A stretch of DNA of 64,000 bases from a virus (Duplodnaviria; Caudoviricetes), in IMG/VR virus record IMGVR_UViG_3300028591_000017, positions 29,677-93,676 of that record, one strand, 5' to 3'. This document shows, piece by piece, positions 57,250-58,160 of this stretch. Every line of letters starts with the position of its first letter. Positions within the stretch are counted from its first letter, which is position 1. A program made the translations under genes and the position numbers. Under the pieces are notes generated by a model that saw nothing but the letters and a program-made list of their open reading frames with translations, ran no database searches and was not told where the DNA came from.

Positions 57250-58160
57250 GAAAAGTTCAGATCTATAGTAATAGAAACGCTTGAAAACCGTATTCTTAGA
57301 TAGTGCAAATCTATCGCAACCTTGAGTTCCACAAAGGCTACTCATATCCTACTGTATCATTTCCAACTGGTGGAGTGGAAAATGCCCGCAAGCACACTCG
57401 TAATACCCATTTTGGTAGGCAATAGGAGACCAGCAGAGCAAACTGCTCCAAAGAACCACAAACAACTAGGAAATAAGCAAACTCTGCCTTAAAGAGTATA
57501 GCTATCTGTCTGATATACAGATGAATGAAAAAACATGAGATTACTATCACATGGTATGGATAGTAGTCAATAATGTAGCGTGAGAACCGACTGGTGACGC
57601 AATTGGTATCCGAGTTCGAATCTCGGTTCCCTTTATGGGAGTGGCGGAATTGGCATACGCGCAGCAAAACTGTACCAAAAGGTTGCAAACTAGACCAAAG
57701 TTAGTAAGCTATTCAAAATCAAACCACAAAGTCAACAGTAAATTGGCTCCCTTTAGTTATCCAGGGGTGTAGTGGATGCCAAAGTCTAGGATATCGCCAA
57801 GGGAACACAGCCCCGCTAATAGGCAAAATTTGTCGTGTAACAGCGTGTTTAATACAATGACATACAACCATACCAGAAGCAAAGCAGATACGCTTAAATC
57901 GAGCGTAATGGGTGGGAATCCCATTGAAATAACTAATGCACATAAGTAGCATACAGCCAAACGCATAGGCAGTTGATGCGATTCTCAGTTGAATGGGATG
58001 TGGAGTAGAGCTATAATATCACACGTGGGTGCTTGACACGTAGTTGATCTCTAGAAAATATAGCTAAGCCTCAAAACGGGCACAGAAAACGTTAAGAGTA
58101 ACACAGATAACGGGTGGTTCCTGTAACTAAACAACCAAACGTCCATGAGGGACACCAACT
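57250..58160 (+). ncRNA. Candidate large ornate ncRNA containing a tRNA-like domain
   Basis: ~900 nt with no plus-strand ORF, many hairpins, three T-loop-like hairpins, long-range 8-bp helix 57316-57323/57679-57686. Confidence 0.65.
57603..57678 (+). ncRNA. Circularly permuted class-II (Leu-like) tRNA mimic
   Basis: Order: variable stem 3' strand TTGGTA; T arm CCGAG-TTCGAAT-CTCGG; acceptor hairpin TTCCC-TTTAT-GGGAG; TG; D arm GCG-GAATTGGCATA-CGC; G; mini anticodon arm CAG-CAAAA-CTG; variable stem 5' strand TACCAA. Confidence 0.75.

What the first reader, a model, noticed from the sequence alone, without database searches (positions are those of the whole stretch)
57603..57678. Circularly permuted, sealed class-II tRNA mimic inserted through its variable arm
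Seen: a canonical T arm (CCGAG-TTCGAAT-CTCGG, 57610-57626) comes BEFORE a Leu-type U8-G9/D arm (TG-GCG-GAATTGGCATA-CGC-G, 57642-57661). The acceptor strands TTCCC/GGGAG are joined by a TTTAT loop. The 15 nt between the T arm and U8 equal 7+1+7, as if N73 were fused directly to N1 with no CCA. After the D arm is a shrunken anticodon arm CAG-CAAAA-CTG that recalls tRNA-Leu(CAA). The element is closed by TTGGTA(57603-08)/TACCAA(57673-78), where a class-II variable stem would sit. Known: bacterial YrlA Y RNAs have a T-acceptor-D permuted module entered via the anticodon stem, and permuted tRNA genes occur in some algae and archaea. Inference: the D/T elbow is kept but the RNA cannot be charged or decode, so it could be a decoy or scaffold for elbow-binding proteins (anticodon nucleases, RNase P, synthetases). 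Entry through the variable arm is a topology I do not recognise.
Basis: partly seen in the sequence, partly recalled or inferred. Interest (0 to 1): 0.92.

Follow-up and report, generated by a model that had tools for sequence, protein, structure and literature searches.

The report
Sealed tRNA look-alike in crAss-like phage RNA
A rumen crAss-like phage carries a conserved RNA domain built like a tRNA written in rotated order with its amino-acid end sealed, grafted onto a hairpin of a roughly 1-kb gene-free island; it cannot work as a tRNA and most likely serves as a docking site for proteins that recognise the tRNA shape.

Summary
At 57603-57678 (+ strand) a T arm, a loop-closed 5-bp "acceptor" hairpin, U8-G9 plus a 3-bp-stem D arm, a mini hairpin and a closing stem lie exactly as described. 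None arose in 300 shuffles of the window. The T-acceptor-D core recurs at the same gene-order position in four diverged relatives. Of its 13 pairs, 8 show compensatory changes and 97.8% of cells are paired. All tRNA elbow nucleotides are invariant (U8, A14, G18G19, G53, U54-U55-C56, A58, C61, and a U at the 48 position). ARAGORN and Rfam (tRNA, YrlA, tmRNA, GOLLD, ROOL) do not match it.

It is not a free-standing gene. It sits in a conserved ORF-free island (about 57250-58205). The island's 19-nt motif GTGAGAACCGAYTGGNGAC plus GACGCAR is single-copy in 77 crAss-like contigs. Other lineages have a plain hairpin at that spot; only this rumen clade has the tRNA-like module.

The closest known thing is the tRNA-like domain of bacterial YrlA Y RNAs. 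This element differs in entering at the variable-arm position, in lacking a Ro60 gene and Ro-binding motif, and in being part of a large RNA.

This scan has noted sealed tRNA mimics in many other phages before. Function is untested. Verdict: new variant of a known kind.

The parts
57250..58205 (+). ORF-free island that contains the module; candidate large structured RNA
   Evidence: No ORF of 100 aa or more under table 11, and only chance-size open frames (up to about 170 codons, stop to stop) under TAG=Q or table 4. It aligns over its whole length with L207 and L006. RNAalifold predicts 149 pairs, 60 of them with a compensatory change. A syntenic gap of about 1.4 kb is present in L006, L007, L008 and L207.
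57580..57598 (+). Invariant motif GTGAGAACCGACTGGTGAC just 5' of the module
   Evidence: One copy in the window at up to 3 mismatches, against 0.01 expected. Exact matches to GTGAGAACCGAYTGGNGAC occur in 77 crAss-like viral contigs, one per contig, in four lineages.
57596..57602 (+). GACGCAA, conserved together with the motif; its GCAA (57599-57602) can pair with TTGC 57683-57686
   Evidence: GACGCAR follows the 19-nt motif in all four lineages. The GCAA/TTGC pairing appears in the minimum-energy fold. L007 has the analogous GCAC/GTGC.
57603..57608 (+). Closing stem, 5' strand (TTGGTA), at the position of a class-II variable stem
   Evidence: Pairs with 57673-57678. Relatives pair with entirely different sequences: L007 ATATCT/AGATAT, L006 CCCT/AGGG, L008 ATTT/AAAT, L207 GAC/GTC.
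57609..57609 (+). Single U before the T stem (U48 equivalent, partner of A15)
   Evidence: Invariant column 7 in alignments A4 and A5.
57610..57626 (+). T arm CCGAG-TTCGAAT-CTCGG
   Evidence: 5 bp, 100% of cells paired, and 4 of 5 pairs show changes on both sides. G53, U54, U55, C56, A58 and C61 are invariant.
57627..57641 (+). Sealed acceptor hairpin TTCCC-TTTAT-GGGAG
   Evidence: 5 bp, 94% of cells paired, and 4 of 5 pairs are compensatory. The loop is UUUAU or UUUAC in the window, L207 and L006, and UAUAC in L007; L008 has a 14-nt loop.
57642..57661 (+). U8-G9, D arm GCG-GAATTGGCATA-CGC, and position 26
   Evidence: TGGCG, the GG of the loop and ACGC are invariant in all members. The D stem never varies, so it says nothing for or against pairing.
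57662..57672 (+). Mini hairpin CAG-CAAAA-CTG at the anticodon-arm position
   Evidence: Folds. A hairpin of variable size stands here in L006, L008 and L207, but L007 has 11 nt that do not pair.
57673..57678 (+). Closing stem, 3' strand (TACCAA)
   Evidence: See the 5' strand.

Best explanation
The element is a domain of an RNA read from the + strand. It is a tRNA-shaped module (T arm, loop-closed 5-bp acceptor stem, D arm, vestigial anticodon hairpin). Its two ends leave through the place where a class-II tRNA has its variable arm, and there they join a short helix of a larger, roughly 1-kb non-coding RNA of crAss-like phages. Shown: the sequence anatomy, its conservation with compensatory changes in a rumen clade, invariance of every nucleotide that builds the tRNA elbow, the lack of a free acceptor end and of a 7-nt anticodon loop, and its absence from sister lineages, which keep a plain hairpin at the same spot. 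Inferred: the D and T loops lock into the tRNA corner, and this corner with the stacked T/acceptor minihelix acts as a docking site. That site would bring a tRNA-shape-reading factor to the large RNA, or hold it away from real tRNAs, as proposed for the tRNA-like domain of YrlA Y RNAs. Candidate factors are RNase P, TruB/TrmA-type enzymes, a host Ro60-type protein, and the phage's own YqeY (GatB-tail-like) protein encoded 2.3 kb upstream. It is neither charged nor used in decoding.
For: Anatomy and fold. Not chance: 0 hits in 300 shuffles. Same module at the syntenic position in L006, L007, L008 and L207, whose helicases are 58-67% identical (L006, L007, L008) and whose neighbouring 135-aa protein is 21-53% identical. 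Covariation: 97.8% of cells paired against 79.6% in shuffles, 8 of 13 pairs with changes on both sides, and slid controls at 25-50%. RNAalifold on the whole island recovers the T, acceptor and D helices on its own. Elbow nucleotides and the U at position 48 are invariant. Strand: T-loop and D-loop identity; G-U pairs on the + strand (window T57627-G57641, L008 T stem); alifold energy -96.5 for the plus strand against -87.7 for the minus strand. Not coding under table 11, TAG=Q or table 4. Graft on a wider RNA: the motif plus GACGCAR occur in 77 contigs of four lineages, and the other three have a simple hairpin after GACGCAR. Model R1 finds no module in 87 loci of those lineages. A YqeY-domain gene (Pfam 2.5e-12) lies in the same + strand gene block in the window, L006 and L207.
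Against: No direct evidence of an RNA. Contigs from four RNA libraries cover the island and its flanking genes alike, and DNA carry-over cannot be excluded. There are only five distinct sequences, so the closing stem (3-6 bp) and the mini hairpin are weakly supported, and L007 lacks the mini hairpin. The D stem never varies. Folding energy is ordinary (z = -0.76). No partner protein is identified: no TROVE/Ro60, no DUF2828 (but the control was silent, so this is inconclusive), and YqeY was not found in the fetched parts of L007 and L008. A 5-bp acceptor makes a 10-bp T/acceptor stack, shorter than the 12 bp that most tRNA-reading enzymes measure (from established knowledge of RNase P substrates; Chen et al. 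2014, PMC4201824, saw cleavage only of the YrlA with a 7-bp stem).
Confidence: 0.55

Rival explanations
1. Processing signal. The tRNA-like fold makes host RNase P (and possibly RNase Z or the CCA-adding enzyme) cut inside the sealed acceptor loop. This would split the long island transcript into two RNAs, as tRNA-like structures do for MALAT1/mascRNA or for M. smegmatis YrlA.
For: It has a T arm stacked on an acceptor-like helix, and the loop UUUAY is conserved in sequence in the window, L207 and L006. M. smegmatis YrlA is cut by RNase P and receives CCA in vivo (PMC4201824).
Against: The acceptor stem is 5 bp in all five members. In PMC4201824 only the YrlA with a 7-bp stem was cleaved. L008's 14-nt loop does not fit a measured cleavage site. 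No ends can be read from the contig data.
Confidence: 0.15
2. True Y RNA. The module and its flanks bind a host Ro60/Rsr-type ring protein, as YrlA does, and redirect host RNA decay during infection.
For: The order of parts is that of the YrlA tRNA-like domain: T, closed acceptor stem, D. A TROVE protein is found in the control genome Bacteroides thetaiotaomicron, so Bacteroidales hosts may have one. Earlier notes of this scan link sealed tRNA mimics in phages to Ro60-like proteins (leads only).
Against: The YrlA model RF02553 gives no match at the element, even at E<=10. There is no GNCGAAN0-1G motif on the 5' strand; the nearest is ACCGAC. No TROVE gene is in the phage. The canonical 7-bp clamp plus ACAGCAA handle of the phage family is absent. 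The host is unknown.
Confidence: 0.1
3. DNA-level element. The island is the replication origin or another cis-acting site, and the hairpins form in single-stranded DNA or in a primer RNA. The tRNA likeness would be incidental or used for priming.
For: It is an ORF-free island of 1-2 kb inside the replication gene block, with a helicase 2.6 kb downstream and, in cr6_1, a DNA polymerase about 3 kb downstream of the gap. It carries a single-copy invariant 19-nt motif typical of a protein-binding site.
Against: All nucleotides that build the RNA tertiary corner of tRNA are kept. G-U pairs exist on one strand only. No iterons or tandem repeats were noticed, but no formal repeat scan of the island was run.
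Confidence: 0.1
4. Remnant of two adjacent, decayed tRNA genes (3' part of one, 5' part of the next), or of an attP site copied from a host tRNA.
For: T arm followed by D arm at 15 nt is what a zero-spacer tRNA-tRNA junction gives. 95 of 123 pattern matches in viral contigs overlap an ordinary tRNA called by ARAGORN. The genome's own tRNAs 1 and 2 are 3 nt apart, and their junction is the only weak YrlA-model match.
Against: The two 'acceptor' strands pair with each other and co-vary in five lineages. No relative has an intact or partial tRNA on either side, and ARAGORN finds nothing in five islands. The flanks are conserved non-tRNA sequence. There is no tyrosine integrase in the complete genome.
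Confidence: 0.03

Closest known systems
YrlA Y RNAs of bacteria and mycobacteriophages (Rfam RF02553; Chen et al. 2014, PMC4201824)
   Same: The tRNA-like domain is written T arm, loop-closed acceptor stem, D arm. The tRNA tertiary nucleotides are conserved, the acceptor is often short, and the domain cannot decode.
   Different: YrlA is a free RNA of about 110 nt whose ends leave through the anticodon stem, with the variable region before the T arm. It carries a GNCGAAN0-1G Ro-binding motif and lies beside rsr. Here the ends leave at the variable-arm position, a mini hairpin stands where the anticodon arm would be, there is no Ro motif, no Ro60 gene and no CM match, and the domain is part of a roughly 1-kb island.
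Handle-tagged sealed tRNA mimics in phage and giant-virus tRNA arrays
   Same: Sealed acceptor with T-acceptor-D order. Some members also keep an anticodon hairpin and are closed at the variable-arm position (L045, L057, L085, L093, L097).
   Different: Those lie among tRNA genes, have 6-9-bp acceptors closed by tetraloops, and are clamped by a helix followed by (U)UACAGCAA. The window element has a 5-bp acceptor, no clamp, GACGCAA instead, no nearby tRNA genes, and sits in a large RNA.
Circularly permuted tRNA genes of Cyanidioschyzon merolae, other algae and Thermofilum (from my own knowledge; reviewed in PMC3400036)
   Same: The 3' half of the tRNA precedes the 5' half in the gene.
   Different: Those mature into ordinary, chargeable tRNAs through circularisation at a bulge-helix-bulge motif and removal of the linker at a 7-bp acceptor. 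Here the acceptor is 5 bp, there is no anticodon loop, and bacteria have no such pathway.
Two-piece (permuted) tmRNA (Rfam RF04321, RF01850 and relatives)
   Same: Permuted gene order with the T arm and acceptor 3' strand ahead of the acceptor 5' strand, embedded in a larger RNA.
   Different: tmRNA lacks a D stem, ends in a chargeable CCA and carries a tag reading frame. ARAGORN -m and Rfam find none here, while the same Rfam scan did find a permuted tmRNA in L086.
GOLLD and ROOL large phage-borne RNAs
   Same: Large structured RNAs carried by phages, often associated with tRNAs; ROOL was first seen in rumen samples (from my own knowledge).
   Different: No Rfam match to either, at gathering score in the whole window or at E<=10 over 56500-59000, and no sequence resemblance seen.

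Membership tests
tRNA (Rfam RF00005; ARAGORN) | Contiguous order acceptor-D-anticodon-variable-T-acceptor, detectable by tRNA models | tested here: not met
   ARAGORN finds 0 genes in the window. No RF00005 match even at E<=10. The order of parts is T, acceptor, D.
tRNA (Rfam RF00005; ARAGORN) | Free 5' and 3' acceptor ends, and a 7-nt anticodon loop with U33 | tested here: not met
   The acceptor strands are joined by a 5-nt loop. The anticodon position holds a hairpin of 3 bp with a 5-nt loop. The de-permuted sequence is called only at a relaxed ARAGORN threshold.
tRNA (Rfam RF00005; ARAGORN) | Elbow nucleotides U8, A14, G18G19, G53, U54-U55-C56, A58, C61 and the 15-48 pair | tested here: met
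   All are invariant in alignments A4 and A5 of 7-8 sequences.
YrlA (RF02553) | T arm, closed acceptor stem-loop and D arm in that order | tested here: met
   definition from PMC4201824.
YrlA (RF02553) | Match to the Rfam covariance model at 69 bits or more | tested here: not met
   No match at the element at E<=10. The only weak match in the genome (24.4 bits) is a tRNA-tRNA junction.
YrlA (RF02553) | Ends leave through the anticodon stem, with the variable region 5' of the T arm | tested here: not met
   One U separates the closing stem from the T stem, and the extra 11-25 nt follow the D arm.
YrlA (RF02553) | GNCGAAN0-1G Ro-binding motif, and a Ro60/Rsr (TROVE) gene next to it | tested here: not met
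   No such motif in 57540-57610. PF05731 is absent from the complete phage genome, while the control genomes matched it.
Handle-tagged sealed tRNA mimics (scan-internal family) | Clamp helix of about 7 bp followed by (U)UACAGCAA, located in a tRNA array | tested here: not met
   No clamp plus ACAGCAA at the element. The nearest tRNA genes are about 10.8 kb away across the genome ends.
Handle-tagged sealed tRNA mimics (scan-internal family) | DUF2828 / Ro60-like partner gene | tested here: inconclusive
   PF11443 was not found, but the control genomes were silent too. The only vWA protein (392 aa) is paired with a MoxR ATPase.
Permuted tRNA genes (C. merolae type) | 7-bp acceptor, functional anticodon arm, and processing to a chargeable tRNA | tested here: not met
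   The acceptor is 5 bp in all members and there is no 7-nt anticodon loop. Processing cannot be tested here.
Two-piece tmRNA | tmRNA model match, tag reading frame, encoded or addable CCA end | tested here: not met
   ARAGORN -m finds nothing in the genome or the islands. No Rfam tmRNA family matches.
GOLLD / ROOL | Match to the Rfam models | tested here: not met
   No match.

The most novel reading that the evidence does not exclude
The module is the lineage-specific 'adaptor' of a previously undescribed, roughly 1-2-kb structured RNA shared by several lineages of crAss-like phages, marked by the invariant GTGAGAACCGAYTGGNGAC-GACGCAR core. A rumen clade has grafted a tRNA-elbow mimic onto one of its hairpins, entered through the variable-arm position. 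This would couple the large RNA to the host's tRNA-handling machinery, or to the phage YqeY protein, during replication.
Probability: 0.35. Interest if true: 0.8.

Novelty: new variant of a known kind. Interest (0 to 1): 0.6.

Why it matters
crAss-like phages are among the most abundant viruses of animal and human guts, and almost nothing is known about their non-coding RNAs. A tRNA-shaped domain that cannot act as a tRNA, and is kept by selection, points to a phage RNA that talks to tRNA-reading proteins (processing, modification, repair or defence enzymes). It extends the YrlA design, known so far from small Ro60-bound RNAs, to a domain of a large RNA and to a different entry point. That shows the tRNA elbow is a portable module which evolution can plug into other RNAs. 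The by-product may matter more: a single-copy invariant motif and an ORF-free island shared by at least four crAss-like lineages, including the reference genome cr6_1, where the 2-kb stretch is unannotated.

Tried and rejected
1. Phage-database DNA search. Blastn of 56700-58300 against annotated phages gave no match. There is no cultured relative.
2. Exact 42-nt search of viral contigs gave nothing beyond near-identical records.
3. Single-protein locus searches found only near-identical contigs.
4. RNA-library contigs (4 runs, 3 studies) were laid on 53000-62000. They cover the island and the flanking genes at similar depth, and contigs give no strand or ends. This is no evidence for or against a discrete RNA.
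5. Promoter and terminator scans gave only consensus-level matches, and the T arm itself scored as a 'terminator'. The Bacteroidetes -7 motif count was uninformative.
6. About 80 crAss-like loci fetched by helicase profile showed no module. The island can lie more than 7 kb from the helicase in those lineages, so that negative is weak. The later motif-anchored loci are the valid test.
7. The metagenome pattern scan gave 118 matches and 30 sealed modules, but no clear new member of the crAss clade. L222 has the same 5-bp/5-nt acceptor design, but its flanks are not homologous.
8. Alternative genetic codes gave no ORF across the island.
9. Literature searches for permuted tRNAs in phages, crAss non-coding regions, a crAssphage origin and the crAss001 transcriptome found nothing that describes this.
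10. A possible kissing contact between the acceptor loop UUUAY and the invariant CAGUAAA loop at 57736-57742 could not be tested, because the second loop never varies.

Full report
WHAT IS THERE. The window is bases 29677-93676 of a complete 93.7-kb phage genome with 127-bp terminal repeats. The flagged stretch lies in the + strand replication/early gene arm, in a region without long ORFs, between a 244-aa gene ending at 56747 and a 135-aa gene starting at 58206. A short 86-aa ORF at 56989-57249 is also called in relatives, so the truly ORF-free part is about 57250-58205. RNAfold's minimum-energy structure of 57595-57690 shows the five helices, although the energy is ordinary (z = -0.76).

DETECTORS. 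ARAGORN finds no tRNA or tmRNA in the window. Rfam 15 gives nothing at gathering scores and nothing relevant at E<=10. The YrlA model has no match at the element. The de-permuted sequence is found by ARAGORN only at a relaxed threshold. A simple structural scan (T arm with G53/C61, a hairpin of at least 5 bp, U, then a D arm with GG) hits once in the window and never in 300 shuffles.

RELATIVES AND COVARIATION. I reached diverged relatives through helicase homologues (58-67% identity) and through homologues of the 135-aa neighbour. This gave L006, L007, L008 and L207/L208, plus near-identical variants. All keep an ORF-free gap of about 1.4 kb at the same place, and all contain the same T arm, hairpin and D arm.
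- T stems: CCGAG/CTCGG, GTGAG/CTCAC, AUGGG/CCCAU, GUGGG/CCCAU, CUAGG/CCUAG.
- Acceptor hairpins: UUCCC/GGGAG, UCGCC/GGCGA, UCUCC/GAAGA, CAAGG/CCUUG, UAUCU/AGAUA.
- On alignment A5, 97.8% of cells pair (shuffles 79.6 +/- 2.7%; slid controls 25-50%). 8 of 13 pairs have changes on both sides, and the D stem GCG/CGC never varies.
- Invariant positions are U8, the A14-equivalent, G18G19, G53, U54-U55-C56, A58, C61 and the single U before the T stem. That is the full set that builds the tRNA corner, including a partner for A15.
- The closing stem differs completely in sequence but pairs in each member: 6, 6, 4, 4 and about 3 bp.
- The segment after the D arm is 11-25 nt. It is a hairpin in four of five members.
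- L008 has a 14-nt acceptor loop, so the '7+1+7' reading is not general.
- ARAGORN finds no tRNA in any of the five islands, and the genome has no integrase. The decayed-tRNA and attP readings are therefore very unlikely.

TOPOLOGY. The strand before the T stem is separated from it by one U (position 48), and the extra hairpin follows position 26.

CONTEXT: A LARGER RNA. The island aligns end to end between the window, L207 and L006, with many invariant blocks. RNAalifold predicts 149 pairs, 60 with compensatory changes, and recovers the three tRNA-like helices unaided. The + strand folds somewhat better than the - strand. No reading frame opens under TAG=Q or table 4.

Immediately 5' of the module lies GTGAGAACCGACTGGTGAC (57580-57598), followed by GACGCAA. 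A scan of viral contigs for GTGAGAACCGAYTGGNGAC found 77 contigs, all 15-150 kb and most of them 50-100 kb, with one copy each. They fall into four lineages. One includes the reference genome cr6_1 (Suoliviridae), where the motif lies in a 2.08-kb stretch without annotation, between hypothetical genes and about 3 kb upstream of the DNA polymerase. In the three other lineages GACGCAR is followed by a plain hairpin whose loop contains AGCA(G). Model R1 finds no tRNA-like module in 87 loci of those lineages.

The window's closing stem starts at the same distance after GACGCAA as those hairpins. My inference is that the tRNA-like module was grafted into the loop of a hairpin of an older, wider RNA. 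The order and position are shown; homology of the stems is inferred. A second block, ATTCTCAGTTNAATGGGAT at 57982-58000, is also shared with the L339 lineage.

OTHER SEALED MODULES. My loose pattern (T loop, 17-34 nt, Leu-type D arm) matched more than 117 viral contigs. 95 of the 123 matches overlap an ordinary tRNA called by ARAGORN, mostly at tRNA-tRNA junctions. The other 28 have no ARAGORN tRNA and include the window's own clade (5 of the 28). Most of them show a sealed acceptor, typically 6-9 bp closed by a short loop of 3-5 nt. Many lie in large tRNA arrays and are bounded by a helix followed by (U)UACAGCAA. This agrees with many earlier notes of this scan, which also report a Ro60-like partner gene. 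I used those notes only as leads. The window element lacks that handle. The phage has no TROVE gene. DUF2828 was not found, but the control was silent. So the element works like these RNAs and like YrlA in design, but it fails the membership tests of both.

MECHANISM. Shown: a selected tRNA-corner fold that cannot be charged or decode, and that is part of a larger conserved non-coding island. Inferred (0.55): it is a docking or decoy domain for a factor that reads tRNA shape. Candidates are RNase P, TruB/TrmA, a host Ro60-type protein, and the YqeY/GatB-tail-like protein. That protein is encoded at 54869-55291 and is present in the window, L006 and L207, but was not found in the fetched parts of L007 and L008 or in 79 more distant loci. 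Rivals are RNase P processing (0.15; weakened by the 5-bp acceptor), a true Ro60-bound Y RNA (0.10), a DNA-level origin element (0.10), and tRNA remnants or attP (0.03).

EXPRESSION. Contigs from four metatranscriptome runs of three studies (sheep, cattle and pig gut) contain the region, but they cover the flanking genes equally and give no strand or ends. This is not evidence of a discrete RNA.

VERDICT. It is a new variant of a known kind: a YrlA-like sealed tRNA mimic, here a domain of a large crAss-like phage RNA entered at the variable-arm position. Interest is 0.6. The tRNA-mimic design itself is precedented and was found repeatedly by this scan. The grafting onto a conserved island shared by several crAss-like lineages is new to me and to the literature I could search.

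Noticed in passing
window 57250-58205: The whole ORF-free island looks like a large structured RNA. 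It aligns across the window, L207 and L006 with many invariant blocks. RNAalifold predicts 149 pairs, 60 of them with compensatory changes. There is no Rfam match.
   Followed up: partly
window 57580-57602; L373 (cr6_1, NC_055894.1) 3039-3075; L339 2462-2492; L377 6627-6656: An invariant motif GTGAGAACCGAYTGGNGAC followed by GACGCAR is single-copy in 77 crAss-like contigs of four lineages. In cr6_1 it lies in a 2.08-kb unannotated gap of the replication block. It may mark a conserved RNA or a protein-binding site shared by these crAss-like lineages.
   Followed up: partly
window 57982-58000: The block ATTCTCAGTTGAATGGGAT is conserved in L006 and L207 and in the human-gut lineage of L339, L369 and related loci. 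It can form a UCUCA/UGGGA hairpin and overlaps a TTGAAT-17-TATAAT promoter-like site.
   Followed up: partly
window 57730-57748 and 57632-57636: A hairpin with a co-varying stem and an invariant loop CAGUAAA (57736-57742). The loop is complementary to the acceptor-hairpin loop UUUAY, so a kissing contact is possible. It could not be tested because the loop never varies.
   Followed up: no
L019, L040, L045, L057, L085, L086, L093, L097, L114, L118 (positions): Sealed, permuted tRNA mimics inside large phage tRNA arrays. Each is bounded by a variable helix followed by (U)UACAGCAA or ACUUACAA. Some are opened at the anticodon stem and have a class-II variable hairpin. Others keep a full anticodon hairpin (loops CUCAAAA, CUGAAAA, CUUAAAA) and are opened at the variable-arm position.
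   Followed up: partly
L045 2430-2520; L057 4040-4135; L021 3528-3589: tRNA-like elements in normal order but without an acceptor stem (Rfam tRNA model positions 7-64 or 5-66 only). They are enclosed by a 6-7-bp helix that is followed on the 5' side by UACAA.
   Followed up: no
genome C1:4440-5144 (outside the window, before its start): Three tRNA genes. The first (96 nt, called Phe-AAA) has a good acceptor, D and T scaffold but no proper anticodon arm. The second has an odd anticodon stem. A 460-nt gene-free gap follows. The YrlA model's only weak match (24.4 bits) is the junction of tRNAs 1 and 2.
   Followed up: partly
genome C1:1341-3283 (L218 5-1947): A MoxR-type AAA+ gene and a 392-aa protein with a C-terminal vWA domain lie just upstream of the tRNA cluster. 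The same pair is in relatives L006 and L007. I did not test whether the vWA protein is Ro60-like.
   Followed up: partly
window 54869-55291: A stand-alone YqeY/GatB-tail-like protein (Pfam 2.5e-12; PHROG 'tRNA amidotransferase') is conserved in the window, L006, L207 and L210-L215. It was not found in the fetched parts of L007 and L008 or in 79 more distant crAss-like loci.
   Followed up: partly
window 56989-57249: An 86-aa ORF with a hydrophobic N-terminus, called as a gene in relatives (L207 2819-3073, L210 2790-3050). There is no Pfam match.
   Followed up: no
L222 2400-2520: A 2.6-kb metagenome contig carries a module of the same design: 5-bp acceptor, 5-nt loop UGUAC, a 6-bp hairpin after the D arm, and a closing stem CUGGAG/UUCUGG with three G-U pairs. 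Its flanks are not homologous to the crAss clade.
   Followed up: partly
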